DNA of 64,000 nucleotides, from NCBI GenBank assembly GCA_965217775.1, contig CBDCJH010000002.1:2240001-2304000 (forward strand), read 5' to 3'. Of this stretch, positions 46,441-49,798 are shown piece by piece (positions within the stretch are counted from its first letter, which is position 1; each line of letters begins with the position of its first letter). The notes under the pieces were generated by a model, which did no database searches, was not told the origin of the DNA, and saw only the letters and a list, made by a program, of their open reading frames with translations. Both the position numbers and the translations under genes were made by a program. This DNA comes from Acidobacteriota bacterium (GTDB taxonomy: Bacteria > Acidobacteriota > UBA6911 > RPQK01 > JAJDTT01).

Positions 46441-46580
46441 CAGTCCTATGCCGCATTTCTCACCAGGTCGCTACGCGTATGATGAAAAATAATCTGTTTT
46501 TGAGCATTTACGCGGAATTTGCCAAGATTTCTCCGGGACAGACTGCGCGATCGTCACGCCCCCTTCTGAGAAACAACCCT

Positions 46581-47924
46581 TTATGCCCCCTGCGGAACCA
46601 GCTTGTAGCCGAGGAGACGGGCCTGGTTTCGCACCCGGCGTTCGAAACGTTGCCGGTCCTGGTGCTCGGTCTCGGTGAGCTTGTCCTCCTTATAGTCCAC
46701 GCGATCGGTGATGAGGCGATAGATGATCCGGGCGAGTTTATGCGCGGTGGCGACGATCGCCGCCGGCGTGCCCACTCGGGCGCGCAGCCGGCGGAAGTAT
46801 TGCCCGAGAGGCGATTGGCTGCGAAACAGGGACTGGGTGGCCCAGCGCAGAGCCTGGGCGGCCCGGTTCGCGCCCGGTCCGGTGCTGGAACTGATCACCT
46901 TGCCGCCGCTGATCTTGTTCTTGGGACACAGGCCCAGCCAGGAGGCGAAGTGCGCCGAATTGGGAAAGCGGGACAGATCCGGTCCCACTTCCGTGAACAG
47001 GACCAGGGCGGTCTGCTCCCCGATGCCGGGGATGCACATCAGGTCCGTGCCCATCAGTTGCTTCAGTTGCACCCGCAACGGCACCGCCGCAGCCGAGGCG
47101 TCCGCACCCTCTGAGGCCCTCGCTTCAAGCGGTAGCGTCGAGCGTTCGAACCCCCGGATCAGGACGGCGATTTCCTGATCACATTCCCCCAAGAGCTGCT
47201 GGAAGTGGGCATAGGTCTCCCGAGCTTGGCGTAGCGTGAACAGCAGTTCGTCGCGCCAGTTCCCTTCCAACGCTGCGATCAACAGTTCCCGTTTTCGGGT
47301 CCGAATCCGCGGGTGGGCCAAGTCGGCCAACCGGGCCGGATCCCGCTCGCCAGCCAGGATGGCGTCGATGATCCGCAGCCCCGAGAGTCCCGTGATGTCG
47401 GTGATCGCATGGTGCAGATGGACATTCATCTGGTCCATCGCCTTTTGCATGTGCAGCGTCGCCTTCGCGGCGGCCTTGACCAAGGTGTCGCGGTGCCGTA
47501 GCAGGGTGCGCACCCGACAGCTCTCGTCGGCCGGTCGGAACGAGCCCCGCAACCAGCCCACCGAGTGCAGGTACCGCAGCCACTCGCAGTCGGCCACGTC
47601 GGACTTGCGTCCGGGGACCACACTCACATGACGGGCGTTGACCAGCACCACATCGAACCCGTAGTGCTCCAGGATCTGGTACACCGGGATCCAGCAGACT
47701 CCCGTCGACTCCATGGCCACGCTTTTTACGTGGCACCCCTGCAGCCACCGCGCCAGGGCGTGCAGTTGGGAAGTAAAGCTGCGAAACGATCGGATCGGCT
47801 GCGGATCGCGGTCGGGGCGGACCGCGACGTACAGTTCCCGAGCGCCGATGTCGATGCCGGCGGCCTCCGGATGCACGACGTTGGGTTGGGCGCTCCGAGT
47901 GCCGGTGCGTTTGCGTCTTGCCAT
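46581..47924 (-). CDS. IS110 DEDD transposase/recombinase
   Basis: AAGIDIG; VAMESTG; RKSDVAD; IPGIG; FASWLGLCP..ISGG; ATAHKLARI. GGAGG RBS before ATG 47924. Confidence 0.93.
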   Translation of the reverse strand: MARRKRTGTRSAQPNVVHPEAAGIDIGARELYVAVRPDRDPQPIRSFRSFTSQLHALARWLQGCHVKSVAMESTGVCWIPVYQILEHYGFDVVLVNARHVSVVPGRKSDVADCEWLRYLHSVGWLRGSFRPADESCRVRTLLRHRDTLVKAAAKATLHMQKAMDQMNVHLHHAITDITGLSGLRIIDAILAGERDPARLADLAHPRIRTRKRELLIAALEGNWRDELLFTLRQARETYAHFQQLLGECDQEIAVLIRGFERSTLPLEARASEGADASAAAVPLRVQLKQLMGTDLMCIPGIGEQTALVLFTEVGPDLSRFPNSAHFASWLGLCPKNKISGGKVISSSTGPGANRAAQALRWATQSLFRSQSPLGQYFRRLRARVGTPAAIVATAHKLARIIYRLITDRVDYKEDKLTETEHQDRQRFERRVRNQARLLGYKLVPQGA

Positions 47925-47964: not shown

Positions 47965-48146
47965 GGAGCGGGGCGGCCAGGGCGTGAGTTCCGGTAATCT
48001 TCTGTTTGGGATGATCCTCTCTGGCTTGCTGCCAGGGAGGATCTCACCATGGATTCCGCCACCCGCCCCGGGGCCAAGCTGATGACCGGGTTCGCCTTGA
48101 AAGGCTCAACGCCAGTGGGGGACCGGACTACTTCGCGCCCCACTCC
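47965..48146 (-). ncRNA. Putative IS110 bridge RNA
   Basis: Closing stem GGAGUGGGGCG/CGCCCCGCUCC; two stem-loop arms with internal loops containing UCAUCAG and CAGAAG, which match the junction flanks; TAGACT -10-like box at 48158-48163 (minus). Confidence 0.62.
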
Positions 48147-48241
48147 GAAACGACCCCAGTCTAGCGAAAGCGAACCCCCCTGTTTCTCTTAGGATTTCGC
48201 AGGCCGCAGGCCGGTGGGGGAGCTGATGAGAAATGCGGGCT

Positions 48242-49798
48242 ATGGCTGAAATCTCCGAGATCAACTACAAGCTGGGTCAGGACAACGTCCAGTTCCTCGG
48301 CCTCGACGTCCATCATCCGGTTTTCGTCGTCTCCAGCCTCACCATCATCGCCTTCGTCGCCGGGGTGCTGGCGTTCCAGGCCGAGGCGGCGGTCGCCTTC
48401 GAGGCGCTGCGCGCGTGGCTCACGTCGACCTTCGACTGGGTGTTGATGGGCACGGGCAACCTCTTCGTGCTCTTCTGCCTGCTATTGCTGGTGACCCCGC
48501 CTGGCCGTGTGCGCCTGGGCGGCGCGGATGCCCGGCCGGACTACTCCCGAACGGCCTGGTTCGCCATGCTGTTCGCCGCGGGGACGGGCATCGGCCTGAT
48601 GTTCTTCGGGGTGGCAGAACCGGTGGAGCATTTCCTGCAACCGCCGCTCGGTCTCGATGCGGCCGACACGGCGGCGGCGGCGCGCCTCGGCATGGCCAGC
48701 GCCATCTACCACTGGGGAATCCATGGCTGGGCCATGTACGCGGTGGTGGCGGTGGCGATCGCCTTCGCGTCGTATAACCTCGGCCTGCCGCTGGCGCTGC
48801 GGTCGGCGTTCTATCCGCTGATGGGGGAGGCTGTGTGGGGCCGGTTCGGCCACGGCCTCGACACCCTTTCCGTCTTCGCCACGCTCTTTGGGCTGGCCAC
48901 ATCGCTCGGCCTGGGCGCCGAGCAGTTGGCGGCGGGGCTGGCACGCCTGTGGGGCACGCCGGCGACCGACACCACCCAGGTGCTGCTGATCGTCGGTATC
49001 ACCGGCATGGCGCTGGCGTCGGTTATCAGCGGCATGGAGAAGGGGGTGAAGCGGCTGAGCGAGGCCAACCTGCTACTCGCCCTGCTGCTGCTGGTGTTCG
49101 TGCTGACGGTCGGGCCGACGCGCGCCATCGCCACCGGCGCCGTCACCAGCCTGGGCCAGTATCTCGCGTCGATCGGACCGCTCAGCAACTGGGTGGGCCG
49201 CGAGGATCTCGACTTCATGCACGGCTGGACGACCTTCTACTGGGCTTGGTGGCTCTCGTGGTCCCCCTTCGTCGGCCTGTTCATCGCCCGGGTCTCGCGT
49301 GGCCGGACGGTGCGCGAACTGGTCGCCTGCATGCTGGTCATCCCGACGCTGACTGCTACGATCTGGATGAATGCCTTCGGAGGGACCGCGGTGTCGCAGT
49401 ACGTCGACCGCGGCCATTCCGCCGTGATCACGGCGGTGCAGGCGCAGCAGCCGGAGATCGCCCTGTTCGCGCTGCTGGAGACGCTGCCACTTGCGACCGT
49501 CACCTCGTTCATCGGCCTCGTGTTGGTGGTGGTGTTCTTTGTCACCTCCTCCGACTCCGGATCACTGGTCATCGACACCATCACCGCCGGCGGCAAGCTG
49601 GATGCGCCGGTTGTCCAGCGCGTGTTCTGGTGCGTCTTCGAGGGGCTGATCGCCATCGCGCTGCTGCTCGGCGGCGGCCTTGTGGCCGCGCAGGCGGCCA
49701 CGCTCGCCGCCGCTCTCCCCTTCGCGCTGGTGCTGGTCGCCATGTGCTACAGCACCTGGAAGGGCCTGCGCGCGAGCACGGCGGGCAGGGTCCGTTAA
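48242..49798 (+). CDS. BCCT-family (betaine/choline/carnitine) transporter
   Basis: WFAMLFAAGTGIGLMFFGVAEP; HWGIHGWAMY; WTTFYWAWWLSWSPFVGLFIARVSRGRT; FFVTSSDSGS. Confidence 0.92.
   Translation: MAEISEINYKLGQDNVQFLGLDVHHPVFVVSSLTIIAFVAGVLAFQAEAAVAFEALRAWLTSTFDWVLMGTGNLFVLFCLLLLVTPPGRVRLGGADARPDYSRTAWFAMLFAAGTGIGLMFFGVAEPVEHFLQPPLGLDAADTAAAARLGMASAIYHWGIHGWAMYAVVAVAIAFASYNLGLPLALRSAFYPLMGEAVWGRFGHGLDTLSVFATLFGLATSLGLGAEQLAAGLARLWGTPATDTTQVLLIVGITGMALASVISGMEKGVKRLSEANLLLALLLLVFVLTVGPTRAIATGAVTSLGQYLASIGPLSNWVGREDLDFMHGWTTFYWAWWLSWSPFVGLFIARVSRGRTVRELVACMLVIPTLTATIWMNAFGGTAVSQYVDRGHSAVITAVQAQQPEIALFALLETLPLATVTSFIGLVLVVVFFVTSSDSGSLVIDTITAGGKLDAPVVQRVFWCVFEGLIAIALLLGGGLVAAQAATLAAALPFALVLVAMCYSTWKGLRASTAGRVR

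What the first reader, a model, noticed from the sequence alone, without database searches (positions are those of the whole stretch)
47965..48146. IS110 bridge RNA whose guide loops can be read against its own junctions
Seen (minus strand): a ~182-nt region closed by GGAGUGGGGCG/CGCCCCGCUCC with two arms. Arm 1 (ACUGG..GCCUU-UC-AAGGC..CCGGU) has a 3' loop strand UCAUCAG (48079-48085) complementary to core plus host flank CTGATGA (48223-48229), and a 5' strand with CCCCC like the other host flank. Arm 2 (GAUCCUCCCUGGC/GCCAGAGAGGAUC hairpin) has a 3' loop strand CAGAAG (47999-48004) complementary to core plus element end CTTCTG (46563-46568). Known: IS110 recombinases such as IS621 use a bispecific RNA with target- and donor-binding loops around a CT core. 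Inference: an intact programmable recombinase with a compact multi-branch RNA and, apparently, the core read on the strand opposite the transposase. The matches are short and the left guides are weak, so covariation is needed.
Basis: partly seen in the sequence, partly recalled or inferred. Interest (0 to 1): 0.75.

Follow-up and report, generated by a model that had tools for sequence, protein, structure and literature searches.

The report
IS110-family bridge RNA, guides confirmed
This is a jumping gene whose small guide RNA carries short copies of its own insertion site and of its own end, so it is a genuine but fairly ordinary member of the recently described RNA-guided "bridge recombinase" elements.

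Summary
On the minus strand, window 48146-47965 folds into a closing stem with two arms, upstream of an intact IS110-family recombinase gene (47924-46581). Three 99%-identical copies sit at the same position of a MITE-like repeat, flanked by a duplicated AG (CT on the plus strand).

Among 98 distinct homologous RNAs:
- The 3' strand of arm 1 (here UCAUC-AG) equals the left flank plus core in 54 of 86 (control 0.6%).
- The 3' strand of arm 2 (here CAGA-AG) equals the element's right end plus core in 55 of 61 (control 2.5%).
- The 5' strand of arm 1 (here CCCC) pairs with the right flank.
- The two bases after the first guide match the first two bases of the element, a "handshake" guide.
- I found no RNA guide for the left end of the donor.

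The guide order is opposite to IS621. It is the order published for IS1111-type seekRNAs, yet the RNA lies upstream of a long, IS110-type recombinase. The same layout is present in ISArsp3 and in a Streptomyces element.

Verdict: a real bridge RNA and a new member of a known kind. The polarity and end anatomy are worth a note. Expression and activity are inferred, not shown.

The parts
48223..48242 (-). Left inverted repeat of the MITE-like target repeat (TAGCCCGCATTTCTCATC-AG). The last 7 nt, TCATC-AG (48229-48223), are the left target half plus the core AG (48224-48223).
   Evidence: the same flank occurs in all 3 copies. Empty sites read TCA[C/T]C-AG-GGGGCG.
48216..48222 (-). First 7 nt of the element (CTCCCCC, the right donor half in the RNA-sense frame). 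The first two, CU, are matched by the handshake bases of the RNA.
   Evidence: the handshake dinucleotide equals the first two element bases in 54 of 78 elements, against a shuffle mean of 12.7 and a maximum of 24.
48200..48214 (-). Left-end hairpin directly after the 7-nt extension. It reads CCGGCC-UGC-GGCCUG here and is a perfect CCGGCC-UGG-GGCCGG in the other two copies.
   Evidence: a hairpin at this position in the homologues. Mean MFE is -9.2 against -6.2 +/- 0.36 kcal/mol for shuffled sequence.
48182..48188 (-). Left subterminal inverted repeat GAGAAAC, the partner of GTTTCTC at the right end.
   Evidence: the reverse complement of the 5 nt before the right terminal 7-mer is present in the left end in 48 of 53 elements, against a shuffle mean of 18.0 and a maximum of 25. 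It lies 33-38 nt inside in most of them.
47965..48146 (-). The bridge RNA core. P1 is the closing stem (48146-48136 with 47975-47965). The target-binding arm spans 48128-48072 and the donor-binding arm spans 48071-47977.
48117..48123 (-). 5' strand of the target loop (GUCCCC + C). CCCC at 48121-48118 pairs with GGGG of the right flank, and C 48117 pairs with the core G.
   Evidence: columns 9-13 of the RNA are complementary to right-flank positions 5-1, at 0.43-0.65 observed against about 0.26 expected.
48077..48085 (-). 3' strand of the target loop: guide UCAUC, core AG (48085-48079), then the handshake bases CU (48078-48077).
47999..48005 (-). 3' strand of the donor loop: ACAGA-AG. CAGAAG (48004-47999) equals the right end plus core.
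46581..47924 (-). Recombinase gene, 447 aa, with DEDD_Tnp_IS110 and Transposase_20 domains. DEDD candidates D25, E72, D109 and D112 are invariant in the family alignment, and ISGGK is in its consensus.
46563..46574 (-). Right end: subterminal repeat GTTTCTC (46574-46568), AGA, and core AG (46564-46563). The element spans 48222-46563, which is 1660 bp counting one core copy.
46447..46562 (-). The rest of the interrupted MITE-like repeat, from the right target half GGGGCGTGACG... to the right inverted repeat ...CTGGTGAGAAATGCGG.
   Evidence: 49 further matches of this piece in the genome.

Best explanation
Window 48222-46563 (minus strand) is a 1660-bp IS110-family insertion sequence. Its 5' non-coding end encodes a bridge RNA (seekRNA) that specifies both where the element inserts and which DNA is inserted.

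The RNA is a three-way structure: a closing stem P1 with two pseudo-symmetric arms. Each arm is an outer stem, an internal loop and a hairpin of the form CAYUGGUG...(G/U)CCCG.

In the target arm, the 3' loop strand UCAUC-AG has the sequence of the left flank plus the core, so it pairs with the bottom strand. [quoted passage not shown] In the donor arm, the 3' loop strand (A)CAGA-AG has the sequence of the element's right end plus the core.

The two bases after the target guide (CU) equal the first two bases of the element. By analogy with IS621, they would pair with donor DNA only after strand exchange (handshake). Recombination at the shared AG/CT core between a circular RE-LE junction (GTTTCTCAGA-AG-CTCCCCC) and the site TCAYC-AG-GGGG in a MITE-like repeat gives the observed product.

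Relative to the RNA and the recombinase gene, the guides are in the order 'top-strand complement first'. That is opposite to IS621 and ISEc21 and the same as in IS1111-type seekRNAs.

Shown here (computationally): the structure, the covariation of three guides and one handshake, the boundaries, and the site specificity of three copies.

Inferred: transcription, the circle, catalysis, and how the left end of the donor is recognised. My guess for the last is the conserved 7 nt, the hairpin and the subterminal repeat, read by the protein.
For: - Recombinase domains.
- Copies: three copies at 99% identity with open frames, each in the same place of a different copy of the repeat, and a 2-nt AG duplication relative to empty sites.
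- RNA conservation: the RNA is found upstream of relatives in 115 nhmmer hits over loci L021-L135.
- Helices: they covary.
- G1 = left flank: exact in 54 of 86, control 0.6%, with 74 distinct 7-mers.
- G2 = right end: exact in 55 of 61, control 2.5%.
- V1 against the right flank: 2.9 of 5 pairs against 1.3 +/- 0.13.
- Handshake: 54 of 78 against a shuffle mean of 12.7.
- Core: AG in 98 of 99 G1 and 95 of 96 G2.
- Controls for polarity, read by eye: ISEc21 has its sense guides 5'. IS4321 has the antisense guide 5'. Both agree with Siddiquee 2024.
- Guide variant: a contig from an RNA library (X15) covers 48021-48169. It carries A>G at 48082, which turns the guide into UCACCAG, the majority form of the target.
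Against: - No transcript start, end or strand is known. The RNA-library contig may be DNA carry-over, and its depth is 3.5.
- No sigma-70-like promoter or terminator was found in the integrated element. The junction promoter was not examined.
- No RNA segment complementary to the left end of the donor was found, so one of the four canonical guides is missing or was missed.
- The bases after G2 (A-K-U) do not covary with the right flank, so there is no donor-loop handshake.
- V1 pairs in only about 60% of elements per position, and 21 of 59 have no pair at the first position.
- P2 in this copy has one non-canonical pair (U-C).
- Related sequences are not independent, so shuffle controls overstate significance.
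- Rfam has no model that matches.
Confidence: 0.87

Rival explanations
1. It is a bridge RNA with the canonical IS621 geometry. UCAUCAG and CAGAAG would be the left target and left donor guides on the 5' sides of loops in a different fold, and the reader's two-arm fold would be wrong.
For: Both segments are sense to LT+core and LD+core, as LTG and LDG are in IS621.
Against: The helices that place both segments on 3' loop strands covary in 95 sequences. The 6 nt on the 5' side of the same loop covary with the right flank. The expected antisense guide CCCCCU is absent downstream of UCAUCAG. The handshake bases follow the AG exactly as they follow RTG in IS621.
Confidence: 0.04
2. The conserved 5' leader is a cis-regulatory structure for recombinase translation. 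Its matches to the flanks would be side effects of terminal repeats or of insertion into a repeat, not guides.
For: The structure lies in the 5' UTR and ends about 40 nt before the start codon. The target repeat and the right end share TTTCTCA.
Against: 74 distinct 7-mers track 86 different flanks, against 0.6% when swapped. The flank is host DNA and differs between elements. The match is anchored on the core at a fixed loop position.
Confidence: 0.03
3. A fourth guide for the left end of the donor does exist in the RNA, but my alignment missed it. It could be discontinuous, in the multi-loop region, or outside the modelled part.
For: IS621's RDG pairs discontiguously. Durrant 2024 notes multi-loop donor binding in many IS1111 RNAs. 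In this element GGUGGCGGA (48062-48054) is complementary to TCCCCCACC of the left end in 8 of 9 positions. There is a weak same-sense signal between the tail after G2 and left-end positions 7-11: LCS 3.26 against 3.07 +/- 0.09, with 5 elements at one offset.
Against: No position-specific covariation above background in 79 elements, anchored four ways. The longest antisense match is 5.23 against 5.35 in shuffles. 4-mers and 5-mers in the 5' strand of the donor loop are at shuffle level, while the V1/RT positive control is at 0.29 against 0.02. The closest relative L027 keeps the left end but not GGUGGCGGA.
Confidence: 0.3
4. The element is a fossil: the RNA and gene are still readable but no longer mobile.
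For: Only 3 copies are present, although 28 unoccupied sites with the 11-nt motif exist. There is no promoter-like site. The left-end hairpin of the window copy has two changes relative to the other copies.
Against: The three copies are 99% identical, with open frames of 526-535 aa. The catalytic candidates are conserved.
Confidence: 0.12

Closest known systems
IS621 bridge RNA and recombinase (Durrant 2024, PMC11208160; Hiraizumi 2024, PMC11208158; passages read)
   Same: - A DEDD recombinase with a Tnp domain.
- An RNA encoded upstream of the gene in the left end.
- Two pseudo-symmetric internal loops, one for the target and one for the donor.
- A 3' loop strand that ends in AG and pairs with a CT core.
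- Two handshake bases directly after that AG that match the other DNA partner.
- A core dinucleotide duplicated at both junctions.
- A repeat element as target.
   Different: - The sense guides lie on the 3' strands rather than the 5' strands. The CT core strand is therefore antisense to the RNA and the gene, and the 3' donor guide reads the RNA-distal end.
- A closing stem makes a three-way junction.
- The 5' target guide has only 4-5 nt and ends in C-A, not C-U.
- No guide was found for the left end of the donor.
- There are 5-7 bp subterminal repeats, with the left one 33-38 nt inside, behind a hairpin.
- The recombinase is 447 aa against 326-328 aa. By sequence only the C-terminal domain aligns (E 9e-10).
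IS1111-type seekRNAs: ISEc11, ISPa11, ISKpn4 (Siddiquee 2024, PMC11187229; passages read). IS4321 on R751 was read here.
   Same: The order of the target segments is the same: the complement of the top strand is 5' of the complement of the bottom strand. Subterminal inverted repeats are present. The left terminal extension is 7 nt.
   Different: - The RNA lies upstream of the gene, not downstream.
- The recombinase is 447 aa against 330-350 aa.
- The repeats are 5-7 bp against 11-13 bp.
- The left repeat is separated from the 7-nt extension by a hairpin.
- The right extension is 5 nt plus AG, not 3 nt.
- The protein is only distantly similar to IS4321 Tnp (29% over 139 aa, E 8e-11).
- The RNA profile does not hit the IS4321 non-coding region.
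ISEc21 seekRNA (IS110 type; Siddiquee 2024; locus L154 read)
   Same: The non-coding region lies upstream of the gene, and there are two guide modules.
   Different: By my own reading of L154, ISEc21 has its sense guides 5' of its antisense guides in both modules, as the paper states. This is the opposite of the element here.
ISArsp3 (the name comes from the record's annotation), an unnamed Streptomyces IS110-family element and a Citrobacter plasmid IS110-family element
   Same: - Long recombinases: 30-44% identity over 96-97% of the query.
- The same target module upstream of the gene: nhmmer E 0.11, 0.017 and 4.8e-7.
- By eye, G1 equals the left flank (7 of 8 for ISArsp3, 8 of 8 for the Streptomyces element) plus both handshake bases. 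G2 equals the right end (7-8 nt). A 7-nt extension is followed by a hairpin.
   Different: The hosts and targets differ. The two actinobacterial nhmmer hits are weak and cover only the target module.

Membership tests
IS110-family bridge recombinase with bridge RNA | Recombinase with DEDD_Tnp_IS110 (RuvC-like) and Transposase_20 (Tnp) domains | tested here: met
   (E 7e-17 and 6e-16, both above the cut-offs). D25, E72, D109 and D112 are invariant, and ISGGK is in the consensus.
IS110-family bridge recombinase with bridge RNA | Structured non-coding RNA in a non-coding end, with two internal loops | tested here: met
   (P2, P3, P5: 97.3% paired, 0 of 500 shuffles as high). (P1, P4).
IS110-family bridge recombinase with bridge RNA | Loop strands covary with both halves of the target around a shared core | tested here: met
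   G1 exact in 54 of 86 against 0.6%. V1 gives 2.9 of 5 pairs against 1.3 +/- 0.13. One search gives the positional matrix.
IS110-family bridge recombinase with bridge RNA | Loop strands covary with both halves of the donor (RE-LE junction) | tested here: inconclusive
   Right-end half met: 55 of 61 against 2.5%. Left-end half: no guide found.
IS110-family bridge recombinase with bridge RNA | Core dinucleotide present in target and donor and flanking the inserted element | tested here: met
   AG on the gene strand (CT on the other strand). AG in 98 of 99 G1 and 95 of 96 G2.
IS110-family bridge recombinase with bridge RNA | Handshake guides next to the 3' guides | tested here: inconclusive
   Target loop met: 54 of 78 against 12.7. 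Donor loop: no signal.
IS110-family bridge recombinase with bridge RNA | RNA is expressed and bound by the recombinase, with a promoter formed at the circle junction | not testable with these tools
   There is only a contig from an RNA library over 48021-48169, which may be DNA. No promoter-like site was found in the integrated form.
IS621-like (IS110-type) guide layout | Sense guides (LTG, LDG) on the 5' strand of each loop and antisense guides on the 3' strand | tested here: not met
   the sense guides lie on the 3' strands and the antisense target guide on the 5' strand.
IS1111 subgroup | Non-coding region and RNA downstream of the recombinase gene | tested here: not met
   the RNA is upstream in all loci where it was found next to a complete gene.
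IS1111 subgroup | Subterminal inverted repeats of 11-13 bp (7-17 bp in Durrant 2024), with a 7-bp left and a 3-bp right extension | tested here: not met
   the repeats are 5-7 bp. The left one lies 33-38 nt inside. The right one is followed by 5 nt plus AG.
IS1111 subgroup | Top-strand complement 5' of bottom-strand complement in the RNA | tested here: met
   compared with passages of Siddiquee 2024.
IS1111 subgroup | Recombinase of 330-350 aa that groups with IS1111 relatives | tested here: not met
   The length is 447 aa. The best full-length named or annotated relatives are long IS110-family proteins. No tree with ISfinder references was made.
IS110 subgroup with long recombinases (395-455 aa, Siddiquee 2024) | Long recombinase and an upstream non-coding region | tested here: met
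   The same RNA module lies upstream of ISArsp3 and of a Streptomyces element. Phylogenetic placement against IS110 itself was not tested.

The most novel reading that the evidence does not exclude
The long-recombinase branch of the IS110 family (this element, ISArsp3, and Streptomyces and Citrobacter plasmid relatives) may be a third architectural type of bridge system. It has a left-end-encoded, three-way-junction RNA with IS1111-type polarity, so the whole element is inverted relative to the CT core compared with IS621. The RNA reads only three DNA half-sites plus a two-base handshake. The fourth half-site, the left end of the donor, would be recognised without RNA through a fixed 7-nt extension, a hairpin and a displaced subterminal repeat. 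If so, the position of the RNA gene and the polarity of the guides were uncoupled in evolution, and donor recognition in this branch is partly protein- or structure-based.
Probability: 0.3. Interest if true: 0.55.

Novelty: new member of a known kind. Interest (0 to 1): 0.4.

Why it matters
Bridge and seek RNAs are the only known guides that specify both partners of a recombination. Natural diversity is the source of orthologues for genome engineering.

This family offers about 100 natural, internally consistent examples. The guides have clear rules: 5 nt + AG + 2 handshake bases, 4-5 nt + C, and 5-7 nt + AG.

It also shows that an RNA encoded upstream of the gene can have the polarity so far described for the downstream RNAs of IS1111 elements. 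That bears on how the two subgroups are related.

The apparent lack of an RNA guide for one donor half-site would, if confirmed, limit or simplify donor reprogramming in this branch.

For the genome itself, it explains three insertions in a MITE-like repeat and predicts further target sites.

It does not open a new kind of biology. Large catalogues of bridge RNA variants already exist (2026 preprint 10.64898/2026.10.21.760802, sections read).

Tried and rejected
- Rfam at gathering and E-value thresholds found no family. The six weak E-value hits are chance.
- The single-sequence fold is not significant on its own.
- The search for related loci in genome contigs with the single protein gave only 5 loci. 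The metagenome scan with an alignment gave the useful set.
- Search for a left-end donor guide: a positional covariation matrix, four anchored scans, the longest antisense match and 4-mer/5-mer presence in the donor-loop 5' strand were all at background.
- A same-sense match between the tail after G2 and left-end positions 7-11 (ACCGG here) is about 2 SD above shuffles only, so I did not adopt it.
- A donor-loop handshake with the right flank gave no signal.
- Classification by pairwise similarity is uninformative. IS621 (PDB) and IS4321 are about equally distant.
- The RNA profile does not hit the IS4321 non-coding region or ISEc21.
- The promoter and terminator scan of the integrated element found 0 sites of each kind. 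I did not scan a joined RE-LE sequence.
- Read laying joints (46445>48240, and 46466>48220 with 4 letters between) are not the precise empty site or a circle junction. They probably come from other copies of the repeat, so I make nothing of them. Parts of the element without RNA-library cover are no evidence either way.
- Literature: a search for 'bridge RNA' together with IS900, IS116, IS902 or IS117 listed no paper that holds 'bridge RNA' among the 12 shown. The preprints 10.1101/2024.06.21.599552 and 10.64898/2026.08.14.744561 and the review PMC13604230 contain no passage on guide polarity in upstream RNAs for the terms I searched. Figures and supplements (for example Durrant 2024 Extended Data Fig. 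10, and the supplementary trees of Siddiquee 2024) could not be seen and may already show this layout.
- No structure prediction, complex prediction, covariance model or protein-database search was run. They would not have changed the verdict.
Full report
**What is there.** On the minus strand of the window lies an open reading frame, 47924-46581 (447 aa). It carries the two Pfam domains of IS110-family recombinases (DEDD_Tnp_IS110 E 7e-17, Transposase_20 E 6e-16). The region 48222-47925 upstream of it is non-coding. The genome holds three copies of the unit at 99% identity (the window copy, C2:1093687-1095387 and C2:2209647-2211346), all with open frames.

**Boundaries and target.** I aligned the three copies with their flanks and compared them with 24 of the other 49 matches of the downstream piece.
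- Each copy interrupts a different copy of a MITE-like repeat. The repeat has terminal inverted repeats TAGCCCGCATTTCTCACCAG ... CTGGTGAGAAATGCGGGCTA.
- Empty copies read TCA[C/T]C-AG-GGGGCGTGACG.
- Occupied copies read TCA[T/C]C-AG-CTCCCCCACC ... GTTGTTTCTCAGA-AG-GGGGCGTGACG.
- The element is therefore 48222-46563 (1660 bp with one core copy). It is flanked by a duplicated AG, which is CT on the plus strand.
- The implied circle junction is GTTTCTCAGA-AG-CTCCCCCACC.
- The genome has 28 unoccupied sites with the 11-nt motif TCAYCAGGGGG. Of these, 16 match a strict pattern for the repeat's end and 18 lie in the repeat by eye. Three sites are occupied, all in the repeat.

**The observation.** Every string and coordinate in the finding is correct. 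The single-sequence fold is unremarkable (z -1.64) and Rfam has nothing, so the case rests on comparison.

**Homologues.**
- I collected relatives of the recombinase from one genome per species of the same phylum: 19 of 401 genomes had a match at E <= 1e-60.
- Genome contigs gave 5 loci.
- In metagenome contigs, 589 of 598 candidate stretches were confirmed, and the best 80 were kept.
- A profile of the RNA core found 115 matches in these loci.
- These reduce to 99 distinct sets of guide sequences, or 98 without the locus from an unpublished genome.

**Structure.** The structure has five helices.
- RNAalifold on 19 and on 95 sequences predicts P3 and P5, and P2 on the smaller alignment. All three show compensatory changes.
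- For P2, P3 and P5 together on the 95-sequence alignment, 97.3% of cells are paired against 84.8 +/- 0.5 in shuffles. The covariation score is 0.403 against 0.160. 0 of 500 shuffles reach either value. Sliding the partner by 1-3 columns drops pairing to 31-46%.
Cognate strands give -26.6 and -16.3 kcal/mol. Strands swapped among 92 elements give -17.4 +/- 0.5 and -12.5 +/- 0.24 kcal/mol.
The two arms are pseudo-symmetric. Each has the form [5' loop strand]-CAYUGGUG-hairpin-(G/U)CCCG-[3' loop strand ending in AG].

**Guides.** These counts exclude L040.
- G1. The 7-mer ending in AG on the 3' strand of arm 1 occurs exactly 60-125 nt upstream of the RNA model in 54 of 86 elements with enough flank. 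A further 24 have one mismatch, 5 have two and 3 have three. Guides swapped among elements match in 0.6%. There are 74 distinct 7-mers.
- G2. The corresponding 7-mer of arm 2 occurs exactly just after the recombinase stop codon in 55 of 61. Five have one mismatch and 1 has two. Swapped guides match in 2.5%. It is always preceded by GTT(T/C)C-like bases.
- V1. With the ends fixed by these two matches, the 5 nt on the 5' strand of arm 1 are complementary to the first 5 nt of the right flank in 2.9 of 5 positions on average. Shuffles give 1.3 +/- 0.13, with a maximum of 1.76 in 2000. In 24 of 59 elements at least 4 of 5 positions pair.
- The conserved C after V1 would pair with the core G.
- Handshake. 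The two bases that follow the AG of G1 equal the first two bases of the element in 54 of 78. The shuffle mean is 12.7 and the maximum is 24.
- In the window element these are UCAUC-AG (48085-79), CU (48078-77), CCCC-C (48121-17) and (A)CAGA-AG (48005-47999).
- The window copy's flank TCATC matches its guide perfectly. The other two copies have TCACC, which the guide U can still meet as a G-U wobble.
- A contig from a metatranscriptome library covers 48021-48169 and carries the change that makes the guide UCACCAG. This is a weak hint of expression and of natural guide variation, nothing more.

**What was not found.**
- No part of the RNA covaries with the first 12-16 nt of the left end beyond the two handshake bases. 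The positive control, V1 against the right flank, is clear under the same tests.
- No handshake signal follows G2.
- In this one element GGUGGCGGA is complementary to the left end in 8 of 9 positions. Both sequences are G/C runs, and the closest relative does not keep the match.

**Ends.**
- The right end is GTT(T/C)C, 5 variable nt (the guide-matched ones) and AG.
- The left end is 7 variable nt, then a hairpin with a covarying stem, then about 6 nt, then the inverse of the right-end pentamer.
- The inverse pentamer is present in 48 of 53 elements against 18.0 in shuffles (maximum 25). The hexamer is present in 38 of 53 against 7.6. It mostly lies 33-38 nt inside the end.
- Here the repeats are GAGAAAC (48188-82) and GTTTCTC (46574-68).

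**Comparison with known systems.**
- In IS621 the RNA is made from the left end. The sense guides LTG and LDG lie on the 5' strands. The antisense guides RTG and RDG lie on the 3' strands, end in AG opposite the CT core, and are followed by two handshake bases (passages).
- The RNA here has the same internal logic: a 3' strand that ends in AG and is followed by the handshake bases. However, that strand is sense to the flank next to the RNA-proximal end, and sense to the RNA-distal end of the element.
- So the strand that carries CT is antisense to the RNA and the gene.
- Siddiquee et al. 2024 report this order (top-strand complement 5' of bottom-strand complement) for IS1111-type seekRNAs and the reverse for the IS110-type ISEc21 (passages).
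- My own reading of IS4321 on R751 and of ISEc21 agrees with them.
- The element here is nevertheless not IS1111-like in other respects. The RNA is upstream. The recombinase has 447 aa; the paper gives 330-350 aa for IS1111 relatives and 395-455 aa for the subgroup around IS110 itself. The subterminal repeats are short and displaced.
- Its full-length relatives on plasmids are long IS110-family proteins of Proteobacteria and Actinobacteria.
- The same target module lies upstream of ISArsp3, of a Streptomyces element and of a Citrobacter plasmid element. In these, the guide equals the flank, the handshake bases match and a 7-nt extension is followed by a hairpin (partly by eye).
- The layout therefore seems typical of a large branch of the family, not a peculiarity of this genome.

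**Novelty.**
- Bridge and seek RNAs, their covariation with target and donor, handshake guides, both guide orders and exceptions in the position of the non-coding region are all in print.
- A 2026 preprint catalogues 32,190 bridge RNAs under 86 models, many unlike IS621.
- In the passages I could read, I found no statement that upstream-encoded RNAs of the long-recombinase branch have IS1111-type polarity, or that one donor half-site lacks a guide. Figures and supplements were not available to me.
- I therefore file this as a new member of a known kind and keep the architectural reading as the novel case.

**Mechanism, and how sure.**
- I hold at about 0.87 that this is a functional bridge RNA working as described under Best explanation.
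- The polarity statement is about as secure as the structure.
- The absence of a fourth guide is the weakest part. I give about 0.3 that a guide exists and was missed.
- Transcription, circle formation and catalysis are inferred from the family, not observed.

Noticed in passing
G000:C2 around 1848279, 4962322 and 6235583 (minus strand); compare window 46563-46574: Three copies of the MITE-like repeat without the element read CCGC(A/G)TTTCTCAGA-AG-GGGGCG instead of ...TTTCTCACC-AG-GGGGCG. They carry the last bases of the element's right end. They look like footprints left when an inserted copy was lost by recombination between the TTTCTCA of the left flank and the TTTCTCA of the right end.
   Followed up: partly
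window 46447-46562 and 48223-48242; about 50 further copies in G000: The target is a MITE-like repeat with 20-bp terminal inverted repeats. It occurs in at least two length forms: about 125 nt, and about 230 nt with an extra internal block. The left inverted repeat (GCATTTCTCA) resembles the element's right end (GTTGTTTCTCA).
   Followed up: partly
G000, 17 matches to Pfam PF02371: The genome holds 17 IS110-family recombinase genes in about 8 groups, with open frames from 299 to 540 aa. One of the four copies with a 330-aa frame lies about 1.3 kb from a copy of the same MITE-like repeat (C2:1656829 against C2:1658334).
   Followed up: no
L055 (G393), L038 (G236), L051; In some relatives the right end is followed directly by a left end (AGCTTAG|CCCAGCCCCCGG, ATGCAAG|TACCCACAGCGG). 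These are tandem or nested copies that carry a natural RE-LE junction.
   Followed up: no
L155, Citrobacter freundii plasmid NZ_CP150625.1: A relative at 44% identity is widespread on enterobacterial plasmids (61 Citrobacter records among 432 records with a match). Its first guide and target end in an A run (UAAAAAAA against the flank TTAAAAAA), so its core may be AA rather than AG. L032 shows the same.
   Followed up: partly
window 48233-49798 (+): The ORF list starts the neighbouring 521-aa membrane protein at an ATG that lies inside the repeat's left inverted repeat. The true start may be the next ATG, a few codons later.
   Followed up: no
runs X11, X14, X15, X19, X20: Parts of the stretch occur in runs labelled sponge metagenome or metatranscriptome, with small shares except where laid. 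I draw no conclusion about habitat.
   Followed up: no
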